A stretch of DNA of 63,866 bases from Patescibacteria group bacterium (GCA_041661405.1 JBAZUL010000010.1:1-63866), one strand, 5' to 3'; positions 38,479 through 46,239 are shown, numbered from the stretch's first letter. The notes: generated from the letters alone by a model not told the origin. Translations and numbers: made by a program.

Positions 38479-39000
38479 TTAATCCCGCATTTTAACTAAA
38501 AGCCAAAGCCCTTTCCCTTTTTCCCGCCTGAATCTTGTTAAGGCAAAACCGCCTTTTAATTTCCGACCCTTTAAGTTCACGGCCAGATGCCCTTTCTTTA
38601 AGGACGTTTCCATGGACGCGGGAAGCAAATTCGCGTAAGTCCCCTTGTCCCAGATTTCTACGGTTCCGGCGCCGTATTCTCCCTCAGGAATCACACCTTT
38701 AAAATTCAGGTATTCAACCGGATGGTCTTCAACTTTTACGGCCAGCCGTTTTACGCTCGGGTCAAGCGATGGCTCTTTTGGAACGGCCCAGGACGCGAGC
38801 GCGCCGCCGATCTCCAGCCGGAAATCATAATGCAGATGGGAAGCGTCATGTTTTTGGATGACAAAACGATTTTTTCCGGCCTCACTTTTTTTCGCAATCT
38901 CCTTTGGCTTTTCAACGGCTTTTTTGCCAACGACAACTTTCCCACCCTTTGGTTCCGGAGTTTTACTAAAATCTCTTTTTTTTAAATATTTTTCCAGCAT
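38479..39000 (-). CDS. Stand-alone LigD-type 3'-phosphoesterase domain protein
   Basis: [55 protein letters not shown]. Confidence 0.92.
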
Positions 39001-39018: not shown

Positions 39019-40116
39019 TTATTGGTTATGGGATTTAAGCATCCCGCAGGCCGCCCAAATCGCGCCGCCAAATTCCTTCCGGATGGTCACGGTGATGTTG
39101 TTTTTTTCAAGGATTTCTTTAAACGCCTGTACCCGTTCCCGGGAGCTCGGGGCGAGCTTCAGTTTTTTATCCAAAGTAATGGCCTTGTTGTAAATTATCA
39201 GGTTGACATAACAAAGCCTCCTGCTTTTTAAAAGTTCGGCTAGTTCGCGCGCCTGCTCAGGAAAATCATTGATTTTTTCCAGCATAATATATTCAACCAT
39301 CACCCGCCGGTTAGTTTTTTCAATATAATCGTCAACAGCGGAAAGGATCTTTTTAACCGGATATTTTTTATTGACCGGGCAAAGCTCGTCCCGCAGTTTG
39401 TCGTTCGGGGCGTGGAGCGACAAAGCCAGGTTCACCTGCAAATTTTCTTTGGCGAATTTCCGAATGCCCTCGGTTATGCCGATGGTAGAAATGGAAATCC
39501 GGCGCGCGCCTAAATTAAATCCGTCTTTGTCGTTGAATATTTTTACGGCCGCGAGAACATTATCATAATTAAGCATAGGCTCGCCCATGCCCATGAAGAC
39601 TATGTTGGTAATTTTATCGCTCTCATAATTTTCCGCCCCGCCGGCCTTTTCAGTAAGCGCCCGGCCATCTTTATCGCGCGTCCCGCAATCCATGTTTTTT
39701 AGCATCCGGGCGAAATATACTACCTGCTCCGCGATCTCATGAGCTAGAAGGTTCCTTTTAAACCCACCCTGTCCGGTCGCGCAAAAAAGACAGCCCAAAG
39801 GACAGCCGACCTGCGAGGAAACGCAAACAGTATTCCGGCCGTCAGCGTGCCTGATTAAGACGCTCTCGATTTTCCGTTCGTCGTCCGTATTAAAAAGCGC
39901 TTTAACAATATCCTCCCCGCCCTTTACCGCTTTGGCGGGAGAGAGGCTGTCCCAAGCGATTTCTTTAGCAAGCTTATGCCGCAAATCTTTCGGGAGTACC
40001 GTCACCTCGTCCCATGATCCGGCCAGTTCATTATAATAGGCGCGCCGAACCTGCTTTTCCCGGAAAGCCGGCAGTTTTATTTCCGCGATTGTTTTTTGCA
40101 GTTTATGAAAATCCAT
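39019..40116 (-). CDS. rlmN: 23S rRNA (A2503)/tRNA C2-methyltransferase (radical SAM)
   Basis: CVSSQVGCPLGCLFC, MGMGEP, AACG. Confidence 0.93.
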   Translation of the reverse strand: MDFHKLQKTIAEIKLPAFREKQVRRAYYNELAGSWDEVTVLPKDLRHKLAKEIAWDSLSPAKAVKGGEDIVKALFNTDDERKIESVLIRHADGRNTVCVSSQVGCPLGCLFCATGQGGFKRNLLAHEIAEQVVYFARMLKNMDCGTRDKDGRALTEKAGGAENYESDKITNIVFMGMGEPMLNYDNVLAAVKIFNDKDGFNLGARRISISTIGITEGIRKFAKENLQVNLALSLHAPNDKLRDELCPVNKKYPVKKILSAVDDYIEKTNRRVMVEYIMLEKINDFPEQARELAELLKSRRLCYVNLIIYNKAITLDKKLKLAPSSRERVQAFKEILEKNNITVTIRKEFGGAIWAACGMLKSHNQ

Positions 40117-40121
40117 AGCAG

Positions 40122-41234
40122 TTAATTATTTTTTATTTTTACATTACTATCTAAACGCCCGAATCCGGCAACCACCAAAAACATTATCATTGCAAGAACA
40201 GCCAATGCGACAATCTTCCCCCGGCTCTGCAAAAATAGCGCCGAGAGTCCGAAAGCGGCCGAGAGAAAATAATAAATTAAAACCGTTTTCCGCTGTCCAA
40301 AGCCGAGATCTAAAATCCGGTGGTGAAGGTGTTCCCGGTCGGAGAATTTAAAAGGATTTTTTCCGGCCCGCGTACGCCTGATAATCGCCCAGACCACATC
40401 CATAATCGGGATGCCCAGTATTAGCAAGGCGATGGCGATTTTACCGCCGGAAATTATGGCGAGCGTCCCGAGCGCGTAGCCTAAAAAAAGCGACCCGCCT
40501 TCGCCTAAAAATATTTTCGCCGGATGCCAGTTAAAGACGAGGAAGCCGAGGCAGGCGGCTGACAAAATCAGGGCGGCTAAGCCGACGTCCGGCTGATAAT
40601 ACTTTGTTGTCATGGTAAAAAGAAAAATTATAAAACTGCCGATGGCCGTTACGCCGGTAACGAGCCCGTCCAGGCCGTCCAAAATCTTAGTCGTATACAT
40701 CATGCCCATGAGCCAAAAAAATACGAACAAGTCGGAAACCAAAACAAAATAATGAGTTATGCCTTCGTAAGCAAAGACCGGAATTTTAAAGGCGTCAAGG
40801 AGGATTAGTCCGCCGAAGGGATTGGTAATTTTTTCTATTCCCACTCCGCCGGCAATAACCGCTAACGCGGCGAGCGCCGGAAAAATAATCTGCTTTCCCG
40901 GTTTGAGGTCATACTTATCGTCAAGAAATCCGCCGATCATTAATATAAGAGCGCCGGAAAAAAATCCCATGAAATGCCCGGGTTCAAGATTGCCGGAAAG
41001 CAGCCTGTCTTTCATAATCCAGAGCCCGGAAAAAAACGCGAAAAAAATCGCGATTCCGCCGAGCAGAGGAATGGAATTTTCATGAATTTTTCTTACTGAG
41101 ACCGGCCGGTCAACAATATTCAGGGCAACGGCAATCCGCCTTGCCAGCCAAGTAAAAATAACCGCTGTAAAAAAAATAGCCGCAAATACGACTAAACTAT
41201 GATAGCGCGCGAACAAATCCGCGGAAAATGACAT
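40122..41234 (-). CDS. Glycosyltransferase family 4 (WecA/TagO-like undecaprenyl-phosphate GlcNAc-1-P transferase)
   Basis: GFLDD, LDGLDGL, FNWHPAKIFLGEGG, DREHLHH. Confidence 0.9.
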   Translation of the reverse strand: MSFSADLFARYHSLVVFAAIFFTAVIFTWLARRIAVALNIVDRPVSVRKIHENSIPLLGGIAIFFAFFSGLWIMKDRLLSGNLEPGHFMGFFSGALILMIGGFLDDKYDLKPGKQIIFPALAALAVIAGGVGIEKITNPFGGLILLDAFKIPVFAYEGITHYFVLVSDLFVFFWLMGMMYTTKILDGLDGLVTGVTAIGSFIIFLFTMTTKYYQPDVGLAALILSAACLGFLVFNWHPAKIFLGEGGSLFLGYALGTLAIISGGKIAIALLILGIPIMDVVWAIIRRTRAGKNPFKFSDREHLHHRILDLGFGQRKTVLIYYFLSAAFGLSALFLQSRGKIVALAVLAMIMFLVVAGFGRLDSNVKIKNN

Positions 41235-41252
41235 AAAGTAATTATTTATATT

Positions 41253-44051
41253 TTACAGCTTCCTGCCTTTTACGACTTCCAGCCCAGCCTGATCGTTTAT
41301 TATAATCATATCCCGCCGTTTCAATTCCCCGGCCAAAATTTTATTGGCAATAATATTTTCAATTTTATCCTGCAAAAGGCGGCGGAGCGGCCGGGCGCCG
41401 AATTTCGGGTCAAAGCCTTCATGGGCAAGAATTCCAATTCCCGCTTCGCTGGCTTCAAGGCTAATGCCTTTTTCTAAAAGCCTCTTGCCGAGATTGTTAA
41501 CCATAAGCCGGGTTATGTCAATGACATCCTGCTCGCTTAACGGCTTAAATACGATGAGGCCGTCAAAGCGGTTTATCAGTTCCGGCCGCATAACTTTGTT
41601 CAGATGTTCATTGATCAAAGTTTCTTTAATCGCTTCATAATCCGCGGCGCCCCCGTCTTTTAAAGCGTCCTGAATAAACAAAGCTCCGGCGTTAGAGGTG
41701 GCGATAATTATGGAATTGGTAAAATCAACAGTCCGGCCGGCGCCGTCGGTAAGCCGACCGTCGTCCATGACCTGCAAAAATAAATTCAGGATATTTTTGT
41801 CGGCCTTTTCAAACTCATCAAGAAGAATGAGAGAAAAAGGCGCTTTATGAACCGCTTCGGTAAGGTAGCCGGGCGCGCCTTCCGCGCCGATCAGGTTTTT
41901 TATGCTGTCCGGATGCTGGTATTCGCTCATGTCCAGCCGGATCATGCATTTTTCGTCCCCAAAATAAACCCGGCTGATAGACTTTGCCAATTCGGTTTTT
42001 CCCACGCCGGTCGGCCCGAGAAAAAGGAAACTCGCGATCGGCCGCTTTCCTTCAGTCATCTGCGCCCGCGCCCGCCTGAGGCTCGCCGAAACCATATTAA
42101 CCGCTTCAACCTGATCAACCATGTATTTATGGATTTCTTCTTCCAGCCGCAAAAGTTTCCGGCTTTCGTCGCCCGAGGCTTCGGCGACCGGAATATGAGT
42201 CAGTTCGCTTACCACGCTGAAAATGTCCTGCTTGGTTACCCGCCGATCTTTTTCTTCCCTTTTTCCCGCCCGCCCGGCCGCCAGCTCAAGAACTTTTATG
42301 GCTTTGGCCGGGAGATAGCTGTCATGCATGTATTTTCCGGTAACCGCGATTGCCTGCTCCAGCGCCGCGTAGGAAAAAAATACCCCGTAACGGCCTTCAA
42401 GGTGGCCGATTTTACTGGAAATAATCCGAATCGCCCTGTCACCTTGCGGCTCGTTCACTTCCACCTTAACCATAGCGCTCCCGAGCGATTTTCCTTCTAA
42501 ATATTTCGCGTAATTCTCCGGGGTGGCGGTGGCGATGCAGATGACGAATTTCCGGTCAATCGCGTTCGCCAGCACTTCGGAAAGTTCAAGGCTTTGTTCT
42601 CCGCCGGCCGAGATGCCGGTGATATTTTCAATATCCCGCATGGCTAAAATTATGTTTCCTGACAGGTTGGCTTCGGTTATAAGCTCGTTTAACCGCTCTT
42701 CGGCCTGGGCGGCCGTCGCGCCAGCCACTAACCGCGAAGCGTCAATTTCTATGAGCCTTTTGTCGCGGAAAATTTTCGGCACGTTCTCTTCAGCCATCAA
42801 TTCGGCGATTCCCTGAATCATGGTTTTCTTCCCCGCGCCGGCGGGGCCGACCAAAATCACCCCTAGCTGGCCCGAATCAACGGCGCTGAAAATTTCAGCG
42901 GTTTCCTTTTCCCTTTCCACGCAATAATCCAGTTTTCCCCACTTCGCCGCTATAGTTAAATCATAGCCGAAATTATCTAAAAGCGGCGTGGCGACCGCCG
43001 TATAGGCGCGATTCATGTTAGTCGCGGGCTTAAAGCGGGACTGGCTCCGGAATCTCCGGTAGCGCCGGATCATTTCTTCGTTTACCTTTAGCCAGCTGAC
43101 GGCGTTTGCGATTTTTGTCCGATCAATTTCCATCTCATAAAAAAGGTCTTCAATATAACGGTCCCGGGTTATGATTGGCAGGATAAAATTCATCGGCTCC
43201 ACCGCGGTTTGCCCGATCTCCCGGGCGGAGAGATAAGCCGCGATCATGGCCTTTTTAAAATCATTATCCTCGCTGGCGCGAAAGCTGAAAACGGCCGGAT
43301 TTTTCTCCAGCTCCGAAAGCCGGCTTTCAATTTTCGCCCTTAAAACCGCTAAATTCGCGTCCAGCCGGATGAGCATGGCGAGCGTTTTTTCATCGTTTAA
43401 TAGGCTTAAGAATAAATGCCTGACCCCGACGGTTTCATGCCCGAGAGTCCGGGCGAGAAGATGGGCGTCTTCAATGATTTTTTCCGCCGGCAGGCTGAAA
43501 TATTTTGAAACTTCAATTTTAACCGAACTCTGTTCTTTAAACTTTTTTGTCAGTGAAAAAAGTTTTCTTTTTTCCTTTCCCGGGCCGCCCGGCAAAGGGT
43601 CATCCCGCTCAATTTTTCTTTCCCCGTATTTCCGGCTTTCCTCGCTTAAACGGTAAACGGCAAACATGTCAAAAAATACCGAAAGCCAAAACCAAAGCAA
43701 GAAGATATTTTTTTTCTGCCAGATAAAAAAATCGCGCGCCGAAGCGTGGCCGGAAGAATAATTTTGAAAAGCCCAGAATCCCAAAGCTAAAACGCCGCTA
43801 ACGCCGGCGAGGTAGGCGAAAATATTTAAAAAGACATAAACACTTCTTCTCAGGCGGATGATCCGGATAGTTAAGAGCGAGAGTTTTTTTCCCCAATAAA
43901 ATATCCGGCCGTCCGCGGCGGCTCCGAGGCCGGCGCCTTTGCAATGGCCGCAGGGCATGCCGAGCTTCATCTCGCCCGATCCGTTGCATTCAGGGCAGAC
44001 GGAAAAGACGGGTTCGCTTATTGTATTATTTTTTGCCATCTTAAAAATCAC
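41253..44051 (-). CDS. Membrane-anchored ClpA/B-like AAA+ ATPase with an N-terminal Zn finger
   Basis: CPECNGSG/CGHCKGAG, two TM helices, two Clp-N repeats, degenerate NBD1, intact NBD2 (GPTGVGKT, LLDEFEK, GARPLRR). Confidence 0.9.
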   Translation of the reverse strand: MIFKMAKNNTISEPVFSVCPECNGSGEMKLGMPCGHCKGAGLGAAADGRIFYWGKKLSLLTIRIIRLRRSVYVFLNIFAYLAGVSGVLALGFWAFQNYSSGHASARDFFIWQKKNIFLLWFWLSVFFDMFAVYRLSEESRKYGERKIERDDPLPGGPGKEKRKLFSLTKKFKEQSSVKIEVSKYFSLPAEKIIEDAHLLARTLGHETVGVRHLFLSLLNDEKTLAMLIRLDANLAVLRAKIESRLSELEKNPAVFSFRASEDNDFKKAMIAAYLSAREIGQTAVEPMNFILPIITRDRYIEDLFYEMEIDRTKIANAVSWLKVNEEMIRRYRRFRSQSRFKPATNMNRAYTAVATPLLDNFGYDLTIAAKWGKLDYCVEREKETAEIFSAVDSGQLGVILVGPAGAGKKTMIQGIAELMAEENVPKIFRDKRLIEIDASRLVAGATAAQAEERLNELITEANLSGNIILAMRDIENITGISAGGEQSLELSEVLANAIDRKFVICIATATPENYAKYLEGKSLGSAMVKVEVNEPQGDRAIRIISSKIGHLEGRYGVFFSYAALEQAIAVTGKYMHDSYLPAKAIKVLELAAGRAGKREEKDRRVTKQDIFSVVSELTHIPVAEASGDESRKLLRLEEEIHKYMVDQVEAVNMVSASLRRARAQMTEGKRPIASFLFLGPTGVGKTELAKSISRVYFGDEKCMIRLDMSEYQHPDSIKNLIGAEGAPGYLTEAVHKAPFSLILLDEFEKADKNILNLFLQVMDDGRLTDGAGRTVDFTNSIIIATSNAGALFIQDALKDGGAADYEAIKETLINEHLNKVMRPELINRFDGLIVFKPLSEQDVIDITRLMVNNLGKRLLEKGISLEASEAGIGILAHEGFDPKFGARPLRRLLQDKIENIIANKILAGELKRRDMIIINDQAGLEVVKGRKL

Positions 44052-44091
44052 TTATCAAACTCACTTGTTTAAAAACAATAATAAAACTAGC

Positions 44092-44682
44092 TCATACCTT
44101 AAAAAATAAATACAAAATATAAACAGCGCTTTCCCGCACGTAACATTTGGCGGCAGCGCGCCAATTATTATCTATCGGTCCATTTTTTACCGGCGAGTAA
44201 AAATATTCTAATCCAATATCTTTAGCCATTTTTCCAAGCCGCATTATATGAAAACCATCGCTTACGAGAATAACTGAATTTAAATTTTTCTCCTTTAATA
44301 TTTTTTCAGCTTCGTTCAGGCTTTGTAGTGTTGTTCTTCCTTTTTCCTCCATAAAAATACTGGCGCCGTCAATTCCTTTTTTAATCAGATAATTTTTTCC
44401 GGCTACGGCTTCGGAAGTTTCTTCGCCCTCTCCTACACCCCCGGTTAAAATTATTTTACCCGACAGACCTTCGCGGTAAAGATTAACGGCCTGATCCAGC
44501 CGGGCTCTGAAAACCGGACTGGGTTCGCCATTCCATTGGCTGGCGCCTAAAACAATAATAGCATCGGCTCTCTGCCGATTATCAATATTGGAAAAATAAT
44601 ATATTCTGGCAAGAATAAAAAACCAAACTGATAAAACTGCCAATAACGAAAATAAAAAGATTTTTTTTAATCTTTTTTCCAT
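44092..44682 (-). CDS. YdcF/SanA (DUF218) family protein
   Basis: ADAIIVLG, RARLDQA, IILTGG, SEA, LVSDGFHIMR; AT-richer than its neighbours. Confidence 0.9.
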   Translation of the reverse strand: MEKRLKKIFLFSLLAVLSVWFFILARIYYFSNIDNRQRADAIIVLGASQWNGEPSPVFRARLDQAVNLYREGLSGKIILTGGVGEGEETSEAVAGKNYLIKKGIDGASIFMEEKGRTTLQSLNEAEKILKEKNLNSVILVSDGFHIMRLGKMAKDIGLEYFYSPVKNGPIDNNWRAAAKCYVRESAVYILYLFFKV

Positions 44683-44695
44683 ATATAATTATCAC

Positions 44696-45073
44696 TCAAT
44701 TCAACTGATAAAAAACCTGCCCGATCGCGATTAGGGGCAGGCTAAGCCATAAAATGAAAAGCGCTAAAGCAATGGCAATCCATATTAATAGCGCGATAGA
44801 GCGGACGATAATCTGAAAAAAACGGACAAGAAAACTTATTAAATACCCGTCCCAGCCGCGCACTCCGTACATGGGCCGGAAAATATTTTTTATCCAAACC
44901 ATAAGCGCGAGCGATTTTTCCTCGCCCGCGATCATCTTCCCGAGCCGCGCTAAAACCATCATTGCCCCGCGCGTATACCACCAAACCGGAAAATAAAGGA
45001 TGTCAAAAACGAATCCCAGCCCCAGCCGGGTAAAATAGAAAAGAAAATTATTTTTCACGATGTCCGCGACCAT
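44696..45073 (-). CDS. Conserved small membrane protein (probable partner of the Clp ATPase)
   Basis: YFPVWWYTRG...WIKNIFRPMYG...ISFLVR with a C-terminal TM; start moved to MVAD. Confidence 0.7.
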   Translation of the reverse strand: MVADIVKNNFLFYFTRLGLGFVFDILYFPVWWYTRGAMMVLARLGKMIAGEEKSLALMVWIKNIFRPMYGVRGWDGYLISFLVRFFQIIVRSIALLIWIAIALALFILWLSLPLIAIGQVFYQLN

Positions 45074-45218
45074 AATCCTCAAACAAGCAAAAAAGATAAA
45101 CCCTCCCGGCTTCCAGAATGCTTGCATGTTCGGGAAGCCGGGTTTGATTCGTTTGTCAGACCGCGCAGAAGGCGGTCTCCTTGTATTTTATCATTATAAC
45201 GGTTCAGACGCAATTAAA

Positions 45219-45348: not shown

Positions 45349-45422
45349 TCGGGGATCGTCCAACGGCAAGACAGCGGCCTTTGAAGCCGTTTATCCTGGT
45401 TCGAATCCAGGTCCCCGAGCCA
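45349..45422 (+). tRNA. tRNA-Gln(TTG)
   Basis: Acceptor TCGGGGA/TCCCCGA, anticodon arm GCGGC-CT-TTG-AA-GCCGT, T-loop GGTTCGAATCC, encoded CCA. Confidence 0.95.
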
Positions 45423-45503: not shown

Positions 45504-46239
45504 ATGAAAAAGCTAAAAAATGAAATCATTATTTATCAATCCTCAAAAGGTGCCATAGAACTCCGCGGGGATATTGATAAGCAAACAATCTGGGCGACTC
45601 AGGCGCAAATGGCCGATGTTTTTGGCGTGAATTCACAGGCAATTACTAAGCATCTAAAAAATATTTATAAAGAAGGCGAATTAGAAGAGCATCCAACTTG
45701 TTCCAAAATGGAACAAGTTCAAAAAGAGGGCGGACGAATAATTACTCGTTCGGTAAACTTCTATAATTTAGATGCCTTTATTTCCGTTGGCTACAGGATA
45801 AGCTCAAAAACAGGCACAAAATTTCGTAAATGGGCAACAAAGGTTTTGCGCGAGCATATTACCAAAGGCTATACTATCAACCCATCGCGGATTAAGAAAA
45901 ATTACGATGAATTCCTGTCGGCGGTGGAAAAAGTAAAATCTCTTTTACCGGCCGGAATGAAGCCGGATACTGAAAGCATCTTGGAATTGATAAAGGCTTT
46001 TGCCGATACCTGGCTTTCGCTTGACGCTTACGACAAAGGAATTTTTGAGAAAGGAAAAACCGCCAAAAAGAAAATTACTTTGACCGCGCATGACTTGACT
46101 GATGCTATTGCTGAATTGAAATCCGGCTCGCTTAACCCCGGCGGCGCTAACCGCGCTTACTCTTTTAATCGCGGAAAGCAACCCTAAGGAAAAAGATAAG
46201 ATGGTTGGGCTGGTGATTATGCTTTTAAGGAAAGGTTAG
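45504..46239 (+). pseudogene. RhuM-Fic fusion gene with the Fic domain deleted and a frameshift
   Basis: RhuM-like N-terminus (WATQAQMADVF, YNLDAFISVGYR, FRKWAT) to ...IAELK. A second frame gives NPARLTPAALTALTLLIAESNPKEKDKMVGLVIMLLRKG, stop at 46239. No HPFxDGNKR motif. Confidence 0.7.

What the first reader, a model, noticed from the sequence alone, without database searches (positions are those of the whole stretch)
41253..45073. Membrane-anchored, Zn-finger, half-dead Clp ATPase with a small membrane partner gene
Seen: the domain order is CxxCxGxG x2 (DnaJ-type Zn motif), two TM helices, two Clp-N repeats, NBD1, NBD2. NBD1 is degenerate: Walker A GPAGAGKKT, Walker B AMRDIE instead of hhhhDE, and LGSAMVK where the Arg fingers (LERRF) should be. 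There is no middle domain. NBD2 is intact. No IGF/L ClpP-docking loop follows IIATSN. A hydrophobic gene of about 125 aa (YFPVWWYTRG...) lies upstream, with an AT-richer DUF218 gene between them. Knowledge: ClpA/B/C are soluble, and ClpP-independent Clp motors such as ClpV remodel secretion machines. Inference: a CPR membrane remodelling, extraction or secretion-linked machine. From recall this gene pair recurs in CPR, but its function is uncharacterised. This is the best protein-level candidate for an undescribed system here.
Basis: partly seen in the sequence, partly recalled or inferred. Interest (0 to 1): 0.7.

Follow-up and report, generated by a model that had tools for sequence, protein, structure and literature searches.

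The report
Membrane-anchored one-motor Clp ATPase pair
A group of tiny uncultured groundwater bacteria carries a membrane-anchored relative of the Clp/Hsp100 protein-remodelling ATPases with a permanently inactive first ring, always encoded next to (and in one lineage fused to) a small unknown membrane protein; this points to an undescribed membrane machine.

Summary
ORF 41253-44051(-) encodes a 932-aa class-I Clp/Hsp100 protein. Its parts, in order: two CxxCxGxG motifs, two TM helices, a Clp_N-like domain, a catalytically degenerate D1, no M domain, an intact D2, no ClpP-docking loop.

It is not a decaying copy:
- About 500 cluster representatives share the N-terminal architecture.
- D1 Walker B is lost in 85 of 86 aligned members.
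- D1 has the lowest dN/dS of the gene (0.035).

The small membrane gene (44696-45127) lies directly upstream in 41 of 49 Clp-positive genomes. A large ORF follows it in 69 of 70 loci found from the small gene; 64 show the D2 P-loop.

In a CPR3 lineage the two are fused into one protein, which argues for physical association. The DUF218 gene between them is a recent insertion.

New here: the canonical D2 pore loop is shortened in most members.

The genome has ClpP, a ClpB-like protein with a TIGF loop, and no ClpX.

Most likely this is a ClpP-independent, D2-driven membrane remodelling or extraction machine with an obligate small subunit. The client is unknown. I found no publication on it. I rate it a new variant of a known kind.

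The parts
44696..45127 (-). Small membrane partner gene. The ORF is 143 aa from the first ATG; databases aa from ATG 45073. Predicted to be a two-TM helical hairpin with a basic cytoplasmic stalk and an invariant tip loop (NIFRPMYG).
   Evidence: ORF. 45 homologues, all hypothetical proteins of Patescibacteria, with no Pfam family. Invariant P, WW, G, N, PM, R, Q, R positions. AF2 pLDDT 90.6, helices 10-55 and 74-124. No PDB fold match. Adjacent to the Clp gene in 41 of 49 genomes. In 69 of 70 loci found from the small gene, a large ORF lies directly downstream.
44092..44682 (-). DUF218 (SanA/ElyC-like) gene inserted between the pair. It is not part of the conserved module.
   Evidence: Pfam DUF218 at 2.3e-28. 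Weak SanA/ElyC matches. GC 0.37. Absent from the closest relative, where the small gene is followed directly by the Clp gene (L013), and absent.
41253..44051 (-). Membrane-anchored two-ring Clp/Hsp100 ATPase, 932 aa. GTG start; the alternative ATG gives the 928-aa form held in databases.
43926..43997 (-). Zinc-binding motif pair: CPECNGSG ... CGHCKGAG (residues 19-41).
   Evidence: Read from the sequence. Sub-threshold Anti-TRAP/RtpA hits. At least two CxxC motifs in 67 of 86 family members.
43650..43841 (-). TM hairpin: TM1 residues 71-95, short outside loop, TM2 residues 116-133, then the conserved RLSEE motif.
   Evidence: Hydropathy peaks of 1.9 and 1.6. Six basic residues precede TM1, which by the positive-inside rule puts the N-terminus in the cytoplasm. 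Invariant W111, W122, F130.
43017..43496 (-). Clp_N-like N-domain (residues ~186-345), followed by the family-specific, nearly invariant motif NMNRAYTAVATP.
   Evidence: Pfam Clp_N 196-245. The ClpA model aligns residues 189-918 in one stretch. Invariant columns.
42252..43004 (-). D1 pseudo-ATPase module. Walker A GPAGAGKKT (42822-42848), pore loop without Tyr (42696-42728), Walker B ILAMRDIE (42624-42653), LGSAM in place of the Arg fingers (42465-42488).
   Evidence: dN/dS 0.035.
41256..42242 (-). D2 active ATPase module plus D2-small domain. Walker A GPTGVGKTE (41991-42017), shortened pore loop LIGAEGAPGYLTE (41856-41894), Walker B LLDEFEKA (41802-41831), sensor 1 TSN, no ClpP loop (41622-41690), Arg finger NRFD, sensor 2 GARP.
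40122..41234 (-). WecA-like polyprenyl-phosphate sugar-phosphate transferase (GT4), a lineage-specific downstream neighbour 18 bp after the Clp stop.
   Evidence: Pfam Glycos_transf_4. TIGR02380 WecA scores 121 bits, below its cut-off. There is a second GT4 gene elsewhere in the genome (C12). Adjacent to the Clp gene in 15 of 21 genomes of the window's class (own included) and in none of about 20 genomes of other classes. Found in 50 of 80 loci.

Best explanation
This is one member of a large, conserved Patescibacteria (CPR) family of membrane-anchored class-I Clp/Hsp100 ATPases. They work with an obligate small membrane subunit.

Shown:
- The protein has a cytoplasm-facing Zn-binding motif, a TM hairpin, a Clp_N-like domain, a D1 module, and a D2 module.
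- D1 has lost Walker B, the Arg fingers and the pore-loop Tyr across the family, yet it is under strong purifying selection.
- D2 keeps all its ATPase motifs.
- There is no M domain and no ClpP-docking loop.
- A ~120-aa two-TM hairpin protein is encoded immediately upstream almost without exception. In one lineage it is fused to the N-terminus, where it replaces the Zn finger and TM1.

Inferred:
- The protein forms a hexamer at the membrane.
- D1 acts as a structural or assembly ring, and D2 is the only motor.
- The small protein's TM helices pack against the Clp TM hairpin. Its basic cytoplasmic stalk, with its invariant tip, contacts the N-domain or Zn finger as a co-anchor or adaptor.
- The machine works without ClpP. 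It uses ATP to pull on, extract or remodel membrane-embedded or membrane-proximal client proteins, with the Zn finger and N-domain as client-binding elements.

The client is unknown. In the window's class the conserved operon partner is a WecA-like glycan-initiating transferase, which hints at the cell envelope.
For: Architecture and motifs.

Family size: 519 representatives at E<=1e-3, and 169 at E<=1e-10, match the N-terminal 370 residues. Most are ~900 aa.

Motif statistics over 86 aligned members:
- D2 Walker A 86/86; D2 Walker B DE 84/86.
- D1 Walker B DE 1/86; D1 RR fingers 7/86; D1 pore aromatic 4/86.
- ClpP loop 0/86.

Purifying selection against an orthologue: dN/dS 0.087 overall, D1 0.035, D2 0.076.

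Pairing with the small gene:
- Same strand and directly upstream in 41 of 49 Clp-positive genomes. The 8 exceptions are among the weaker Clp hits, E 1e-6 to 1e-9, plus one broken contig.
- Reverse direction: in 69 of 70 loci found from the small gene, a large ORF lies directly downstream; 64 show the D2 P-loop and the rest are cut by the contig end.
- Also seen in relatives at 53, 36 and 28% identity.

Fusion:
- G011/CPR3 879 aa and G001 846 aa, plus 4 further fused homologues.
- The fusion keeps the TM2-RLSE junction. This fixes the small protein's C-terminus outside the cell and its stalk inside.

Small-protein model: pLDDT 90.6, two ~50-residue helices. Nine basic against three acidic residues in the stalk (sequence).

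ClpP independence is plausible. There is no hG[FL] loop in any member. The genome's ClpP has another candidate partner, a ClpB-like protein carrying a TIGF loop.
Against: - There is no experimental or expression data. The only sequencing runs are DNA from groundwater metagenomes.
- The canonical pore-loop tyrosines are missing from D1 in nearly all members. The D2 loop is shortened to 7-9 residues in 61 of 85, with an aromatic in the loop core in only 15 of 86. That is unusual for a threading extractase and favours a non-threading mode.
- The AF2 model of the natural fusion gave a low-confidence small domain, pLDDT 34-54, so no interface could be read.
- The WecA-like linkage is restricted to one class and may be inherited gene order.
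- Hexamer formation and topology are inferred, not shown.
Confidence: 0.55

Rival explanations
1. Non-threading conformational machine. The pore loops of both rings are degenerate. So the D2 ATP cycle would not translocate polypeptide. Instead it would move the N-domains, the TM hairpins and the small subunit's stalk. That motion would gate, assemble or regulate a membrane complex, for example undecaprenyl-phosphate-linked glycan synthesis by the neighbouring WecA-like enzyme. This would resemble Torsin with its membrane cofactors.
For: - The D1 pore aromatic is present in 4 of 86 members. The D2 canonical G[YFW] is present in 9 of 86, and the loop is shortened by 4 or more residues in 63 of 86.
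- Even the fused CPR3 homologues replace the D2 Tyr by Q or H.
- There are conserved residues inside the TM helices of both proteins.
- The WecA-like gene lies downstream in 15 of 21 genomes of the window's class (own included) and in 50 of 80 loci.
- A DUF218 (ElyC/SanA-like envelope factor) gene has inserted into the same operon.
Against: - A Tyr sits just before LTE in 39 of 85 members and could serve as a pore residue on a shorter loop.
- 14 of 85 keep a full-length loop, and a few keep GY.
- The GT4 linkage is absent outside one class.
- All other D2 translocase motifs are intact.
Confidence: 0.22
2. Membrane-tethered general disaggregase or holdase. On this reading it is a ClpB-like chaperone that is simply localised to the membrane, and the small protein only stabilises the anchor.
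For: - Best whole-protein family scores are to ClpB, ClpA and ClpG/K disaggregases.
- A DnaJ-like Zn motif is a known unfolded-protein binding element (established knowledge).
- ClpP independence.
Against: - There is no M domain, which ClpB needs for DnaK coupling.
- D1 is dead and the pore loops are degenerate.
- A ClpB-like protein, 1220 bits against the 1232-bit cut-off, already exists in the genome.
- The strict pairing and fusion with a specific, highly conserved membrane protein argue for a dedicated complex.
Confidence: 0.1
3. Membrane-bound protease partner: an FtsH-like role, delivering membrane proteins to ClpP through a non-canonical docking surface.
For: The genome has ClpP but no ClpX. 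Membrane anchoring parallels FtsH.
Against: - No hG[FL] loop in any of 86 members, and the loop region is 4-6 residues shorter than in ClpC.
- The genome's ClpB-like protein carries a TIGF loop and can serve ClpP.
- ClpP is not linked to the locus.
Confidence: 0.05
4. A decaying, functionless paralogue of ClpC/ClpB.
For: Degenerate D1 motifs in the window's copy.
Against: - The degeneracy is family-wide and ancient.
- ORFs are intact in all genomes (no internal stops).
- dN/dS is 0.087 overall and lowest in D1.
- Single copy, present in 20 of 24 sampled genomes of the class.
Confidence: 0.02

Closest known systems
ClpC / ClpA / ClpB (class-I Clp/Hsp100 unfoldases and disaggregases)
   Same: - Clp_N-type N-domain, two AAA+ modules, AAA_lid_9 and D2-small domain.
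- D2 aligns to the D2 of S. aureus ClpC over ~310 residues at 269 bits, one of four local stretches (whole-protein E 4.5e-113).
- Like ClpA it has no M domain, and the ClpA model aligns in one stretch.
   Different: - Membrane-anchored by a TM hairpin.
- N-terminal CxxCxGxG pair.
- D1 lacks Walker B, the Arg fingers and the pore Tyr.
- No ClpP loop (unlike ClpA/C) and no M domain (unlike ClpB/C).
- Shortened D2 pore loop.
- Obligate small membrane partner.
- Scores far below every NCBIfam cut-off: ClpB 468 against 1232, ClpA 429 against 993.
ClpV/TssH (type VI secretion ATPase)
   Same: A ClpP-independent Clp/Hsp100 dedicated to one machine through its N-domain.
   Different: ClpV is soluble, has an M-domain-like insertion and two active rings. 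The model score is 356 against a cut-off of 885.
FtsH
   Same: An AAA+ hexamer held at the membrane by two N-terminal TM helices per subunit, often with small membrane regulators (established knowledge).
   Different: FtsH has one AAA module and a fused M41 protease. Here there are two Clp-type modules and no protease domain.
Pex1/Pex6-Pex15(PEX26) and Cdc48/p97 with VIMP/Ubx2 (eukaryotic double-ring AAA+ extractases)
   Same: Double ring in which D1 is catalytically inactive or weak and D2 is the motor. These are recruited to a membrane by a small helical membrane protein that binds the N-domain, and they extract proteins from membranes (established knowledge; reviewed in PMC9265785).
   Different: A different AAA+ clade. 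Those ATPases are soluble and keep aromatic D2 pore loops. Here the ATPase itself is membrane-integral and the D2 loop is mostly shortened.
Torsin-LAP1/LULL1
   Same: A Clp-D2-like AAA+ that lacks aromatic pore loops, is membrane-associated, and depends on a membrane-protein partner (established knowledge).
   Different: Torsin has a single module, lacks its own Arg finger, and lies in the ER lumen. Here D2 keeps its Arg finger (NRFD), and a dead D1 ring is present.
Plasmodium PTEX (HSP101-EXP2)
   Same: A ClpB-type Hsp100 without ClpP coupling that works with a membrane protein. PDB 6e10/6e11 are among the hits.
   Different: In PTEX the D2 exit face docks onto the pore. Here the anchor is N-terminal, so the D1/N-domain face points at the membrane. 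This geometry fits extraction, not export.

Membership tests
Class-I Clp/Hsp100 (two-ring AAA+) | Clp_N domain, two AAA+ modules (AAA + AAA_lid_9; AAA_2 + ClpB_D2-small) | tested here: met
   All five Pfam domains score above their gathering cut-offs. PDB hits to ClpC, ClpB and ClpA reach E down to 4.5e-113.
Class-I Clp/Hsp100 (two-ring AAA+) | Both rings catalytically competent (Walker A GK[ST], Walker B hhhhDE, Arg fingers) | tested here: not met
   D1 reads GAGKKT, ILAMRD and LGSAM. Across the family, DE is present in 1 of 86 and RR in 7 of 86. D2 is competent.
ClpB | Long coiled-coil M domain between D1 and D2; equivalog model score at or above 1232 bits | tested here: not met
   The M domain is absent: query 598-604 spans ClpC 405-470. 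TIGR03346 scores 468 bits.
ClpA / ClpC / ClpE (ClpP partners) | hG[FL] ClpP-docking loop after sensor 1 in D2 | tested here: not met
   The region reads 'AGALFIQDALKDGGAADYE' and carries no motif. None of 86 family members has one. ClpA model: 429 bits against 993.
ClpE | N-terminal ClpX-type C4 zinc ribbon plus M domain plus ClpP loop, soluble | tested here: not met
   The Zn motif is CxxCxGxG x2 followed by TM helices, with no M domain and no ClpP loop.
ClpV/TssH | Equivalog score at or above 885 bits; T6SS sheath genes present in the genome | tested here: not met
   TIGR03345 scores 356 bits.
DnaJ-type zinc finger (CxxCxGxG) | Pfam DnaJ_CXXCXGXG or a related model above cut-off; four motifs forming two Zn centres | tested here: inconclusive
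   Only two motifs are present. There is no DnaJ_CXXCXGXG hit at E<=0.01. Anti-TRAP scores 20.4 bits against a cut-off of 32. This is the one-centre arrangement seen in Anti-TRAP.
FtsH | Single AAA module plus Peptidase_M41 | tested here: not met
   No M41 domain, and two Clp-type modules.
This family (membrane-anchored Clp with small partner; unnamed) | N-terminal TM segment(s), Clp_N-like domain with the NMNRAYTAVATP motif, D1 without Walker B DE, intact D2, no ClpP loop, small YFPxWWY / FRPMYG gene directly upstream or fused | tested here: met

The most novel reading that the evidence does not exclude
The pair is an Hsp100-derived membrane machine that no longer threads polypeptides. One live ATPase ring, mounted on a dead scaffold ring, would do conformational work on a ring of about 18 TM helices (12 from the Clp, 6 from the partner) and on the partner's stalks. 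That work would control a cell-envelope process, for example the supply, flipping or quality control of undecaprenyl-phosphate-linked glycan synthesis by the co-operonic WecA-like enzyme. This would be a bacterial counterpart of Torsin-type, cofactor-dependent, non-threading AAA+ action.
Probability: 0.2. Interest if true: 0.85.

Novelty: new variant of a known kind. Interest (0 to 1): 0.66.

Why it matters
Clp/Hsp100 proteins are textbook soluble unfoldases. This family is the exception on four counts:
- It is integral to the membrane.
- It has a conserved dead first ring and mostly non-canonical pore loops.
- It does not couple to ClpP.
- It has an obligate small membrane subunit.

It is widespread in Patescibacteria. 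The small gene was found in at least 571 species-level genomes, and the Clp in about 83% of sampled genomes of the window's class. These organisms have very small genomes, so a 3.3-kb module kept under strong selection must do something important.

The family also gives a natural system for two questions. How does a double-ring AAA+ work with one motor? What does a Clp ring do when the canonical pore tyrosines are gone? It may also expose an unknown step of envelope or membrane-protein homeostasis in CPR bacteria. Public databases currently label it 'AAA family ATPase', 'ClpC' or 'hypothetical protein'.

Tried and rejected
- **Decaying copy.** Rejected by the family-wide motif statistics and dN/dS.
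- **ClpP partner.** Rejected as unlikely. There is no docking loop in 86 of 86 members, and another ClpP-loop-bearing Clp exists in the genome.
- **DUF218 as part of the module.** Rejected. It is absent in the closest relative and in distant relatives, and it has low GC.
- **WecA-like GT4 as a universal partner.** Rejected. It is adjacent only within the window's class.
- **Fold search of the small-protein model against the PDB.** No match with E<1. The model is only a generic helical hairpin.
- **AF2 of the natural fusion protein, to read the interface between the small domain and the Clp.** The small-domain part had pLDDT 34-54, so it was not usable.
- **Pfam on 47 small-protein homologues at E<=1.** Only noise, DUF4873 in 7 of 47 with a best E of 0.0015.
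- **Five literature searches and a read of the CPR protein-family paper.** Nothing on this family.
- **RNA evidence for co-transcription.** Only DNA runs from groundwater metagenomes hold the sequence.
- **Promoter and terminator scan.** Nothing informative.

Full report
**1. Observation**

The minus strand between 38.4 and 45.1 kb carries a tight gene string with gaps of 5-40 bp:

| Gene | Coordinates |
|---|---|
| Small hydrophobic gene | 44696-45127 |
| DUF218 | 44092-44682 |
| 932-aa Clp ORF | 41253-44051 |
| GT4 transferase | 40122-41234 |
| RlmN | 39019-40116 |
| LigD phosphoesterase domain | 38479-39000 |

Pfam finds Clp_N, AAA, AAA_lid_9, AAA_2 and ClpB_D2-small in the large ORF, and DUF218 in the middle gene. 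It finds nothing in the small gene.

| Feature | Query | ClpC |
|---|---|---|
| D1 P-loop | GPAGAGKKT | GEPGVGKTA |
| D1 Walker B | ILAMRDIE | ILFIDELH |
| Arg fingers | LGSAM | LERRF |
| D1 pore loop | AGATAAQAEE | AGTKYRGEFE |

- The M domain is missing: query 598-604 bridges ClpC 405-470.
- 'ALKDGGAAD' stands where ClpC has its 'AGF' ClpP loop.
- D2 keeps Walker A and B, sensor 1, the Arg finger and sensor 2.
- The two CxxCxGxG motifs are at residues 19-26 and 34-41. The two hydropathy peaks are at 71-95 and 116-133.
- The DUF218 region has GC 0.37-0.42, against 0.46-0.55 in the Clp gene.

One addition: the canonical D2 pore loop (GAPPGYVGYEEGG) is six residues shorter here (LIGAEGAPGYLTE).

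**2. It is a family, not a decaying copy**

*Family size.* A word-indexed search with residues 1-350 found eight homologues at 22-80% identity with the same layout. An exhaustive phmmer search with residues 1-370 against 1.84 billion cluster representatives found 519 proteins at E<=1e-3 and 169 at E<=1e-10. Most are ~900 aa.

*Motif conservation.* I aligned 85 full-length members plus the query, with the genome's own ClpB-like protein as a canonical ruler.

| Feature | Members with it |
|---|---|
| D2 Walker A | 86/86 |
| D2 Walker B DE | 84/86 |
| D1 Walker B DE | 1/86 |
| D1 GK[ST] | 31/86 |
| D1 RR fingers | 7/86 |
| D1 pore aromatic | 4/86 |
| ClpP-type hG[FL] loop | 0/86 |
| At least two CxxC in the first 90 residues | 67/86 |
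| D2 pore loop 7-9 residues (canonical 13) | 61/85 |
| Aromatic inside the D2 loop core | 15/86 |

*Selection.* Against an orthologue (L013; small protein 83% identical), dN/dS is 0.087 for the gene. It is 0.035 in D1, the lowest of all segments, and 0.076 in D2.

D1 is therefore a conserved pseudo-ATPase ring, not debris.

**3. The small gene is an obligate partner**

*Relatives.* In relatives at 53, 36 and 28% identity, a 123-149-aa gene lies immediately upstream of the Clp gene. It is homologous to the window's small gene, with invariant P47, W49, W50, Y51, G54 ... R102, Q105, R109.

*From the Clp side.*
- The Clp N-terminus matched 49 of 401 sampled genomes of the phylum. Within the window's class it matched 20 of 24. 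It is single-copy with no internal stops.
- A profile of the small protein found its gene in 41 of those 49. It was always on the same contig and strand, directly upstream.
- The eight without it have weaker Clp matches (E 1e-6 to 1e-9) or, in one case, a broken contig.

*From the small-gene side.*
- Of the 70 best loci with at least 1.5 kb downstream, 69 have a large ORF directly downstream.
- 64 of those show the D2 P-loop. The rest are cut by the contig end.

*DUF218 is an insertion.* In the closest relative the small gene is followed by the Clp gene after 19 bp, with no DUF218. The AT-rich DUF218 gene in the window is therefore a recent insertion into the pair.

**4. Rosetta-stone fusions**

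Two genomes that the Clp N-terminal query had missed gave small-protein matches inside ORFs of 879 and 846 aa.

- These are Clp ATPases whose N-terminus is the small protein (FPWWWY ... FFRPYRRDY ...). A further TM helix and the family's RLSE junction follow.
- The 879-aa form is OQX50932.1 of 'candidate division CPR3 bacterium 4484_211', annotated as hypothetical.
- It has four further fused homologues. The fusion is therefore a stable lineage trait.
- The fused forms have no separate small gene. The small domain replaces the Zn finger and TM1.

The ATPase must be cytoplasmic. The fusion therefore fixes the topology: the small protein's C-terminus is outside and its middle part is inside.

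The fused forms still have D1 GKT and DE. They lack the D1 Arg fingers and the D1 pore Tyr. Their D2 pore residue varies (Y, Q, Q, H, or deleted). D1 activity and the pore loops were therefore lost stepwise within the wider family.

A third variant (G004) has a separate small gene upstream of an 868-aa Clp that has TM helices but no Zn finger.

**5. The small protein**

- AF2 with 47 sequences gives pLDDT 90.6. There are two ~50-residue helices (10-55 and 74-124), joined by the invariant loop NIFRPMYGxxxW.
- The outer halves of the helices (10-33 and 93-124) are hydrophobic.
- The inner halves and the loop carry nine basic and three acidic residues. By the positive-inside rule this part is a cytoplasmic stalk, which agrees with the fusion topology.
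- Foldseek against the PDB finds nothing with E<1. Pfam finds nothing significant in 47 homologues.
- AF2 of the natural fusion modelled the AAA+ body well. The small domain came out at pLDDT 34-54, so no interface could be read.

**6. Genome context**

The 1.17-Mb genome is 98% complete and comes from groundwater metagenomes.

- It has one ClpP, unlinked and next to uvrB.
- It has no ClpX. The best hit is 23 bits, in a 627-aa ORF.
- It has one other Clp ATPase. This protein has intact motifs and a long M domain. It scores 1220 bits on the ClpB equivalog, just under the 1232 cut-off. It also carries a ClpC-like 'YTIGF' loop.

ClpP therefore has a candidate partner other than the protein studied here.

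The downstream GT4 is WecA-like (TIGR02380, 121 bits, below cut-off). It is distinct from the genome's other GT4 gene on C12. It follows the Clp gene in 15 of 21 genomes of the window's class (own included) and in 50 of 80 loci. It does so in none of about 20 genomes of other classes. This is a lineage-level operon partner, not a universal one.

From my own knowledge, E. coli ElyC (a DUF218 protein) and WecA both act in undecaprenyl-phosphate-linked envelope glycan pathways. The inserted DUF218 gene fits an envelope theme, but this is only a hint.

**7. Mechanism**

*Shown:*
- the architecture;
- family-wide D1 inactivation under strong constraint;
- intact D2 ATPase motifs;
- no M domain and no ClpP loop;
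- an obligate linkage, and occasional fusion, with a two-TM hairpin protein.

*Inferred:*
- a membrane-anchored hexamer;
- a dead D1 ring that scaffolds assembly, as D1 does in Pex1/Pex6 and D2 does in NSF;
- D2 as the sole motor;
- an N-domain and Zn-finger face that points to the membrane;
- partner TM helices that pack against the Clp TM hairpin, with the partner's stalk reaching the N-domain.

The most likely action is ClpP-independent extraction or remodelling of membrane or membrane-proximal proteins (confidence 0.55).

The main rival (0.22) is a non-threading conformational machine, because the canonical pore tyrosines are mostly gone in both rings.

The remaining rivals are less likely:

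| Rival | Confidence |
|---|---|
| Tethered general disaggregase | 0.10 |
| Non-canonical ClpP partner | 0.05 |
| Decaying copy | 0.02 |

**8. Comparison and novelty**

By sequence the family belongs to the class-I Clp/Hsp100 superfamily. It fails the defining tests for ClpB (M domain, model score), ClpA/C/E (ClpP loop) and ClpV (model score).

In its working logic it resembles the double-ring eukaryotic extractases that have a dead D1 and a small membrane receptor (Pex1/6-Pex15, p97-VIMP). It also resembles FtsH in its anchoring. If it does not thread, it resembles Torsin with its membrane cofactors.

Five full-text literature searches and the CPR protein-family paper gave nothing on this family. 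Databases call it 'AAA family ATPase', 'ClpC' or 'hypothetical'.

Earlier notes of this scan describe the same family in other genomes and reached a similar reading. I treated them as leads and re-derived the pairing and the motif statistics independently. The gene fusions, the topology argument, the dN/dS profile, the DUF218-insertion result and the limited reach of the GT4 linkage do not appear in the excerpts of those notes shown.

**Verdict:** a real, conserved, undescribed variant of a known kind of machine. Its function is still to be found.

Noticed in passing
own genome C4:66983-69622 (-), outside the window (L002): The genome's only other Clp ATPase is ClpB-like: a long M domain and 1220 bits on TIGR03346, just under the 1232 cut-off. 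It also carries a ClpC-type 'YTIGF' ClpP-docking loop after TSN. The genome has ClpP but no ClpX. This may be a natural ClpB-ClpP hybrid, like the engineered 'BAP' variant.
   Followed up: partly
window 44092-44682 (-): An AT-rich (GC 0.37) DUF218 / SanA-ElyC-like gene has recently inserted between the small gene and the Clp gene. It is absent from the closest relative (L013). It lies in the same operon as a WecA-like transferase.
   Followed up: yes
L010 1714-4353 (-) (G011, CPR3 bacterium 4484_211, OQX50932.1) and L011 1652-4192 (-) (G001): Natural fusions of the small membrane protein to the N-terminus of the Clp ATPase. D1 Walker A and B are still intact in these forms. UniRef labels the CPR3 protein 'UBA domain-containing', which looks like a mis-annotation.
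   Followed up: yes
window 38479-39000 (-): A stand-alone LigD 3'-phosphoesterase domain gene (TIGR02777, 210 bits) lies at the end of the same gene string. It is also present downstream in relative L004.
   Followed up: no
window 45349-45422 (+) and 45504-46187 (+): A tRNA-Gln(ttg) lies just upstream of the module on the other strand. It is followed by a 227-aa ORF of unknown type, MKKLKNEIIIYQSSKG..., which I did not analyse.
   Followed up: no
loci L015, L027, L028, L040, L044 and others: Many contigs that carry the CPR-type pair come from records titled 'uncultured Gammaproteobacteria bacterium isolate binchicken...' or 'SRP...'. These organism labels are probably placeholders or errors.
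   Followed up: no
window residues ~340-360 of the Clp (about 42970-43030): A nearly invariant, family-specific motif, F[KR]P..NMNRAYTAVATP.L, lies between the N-domain and D1 (R348, T351, A352, T355, P356 invariant). It is longer than the canonical TPxLD linker, and its role is unknown.
   Followed up: no
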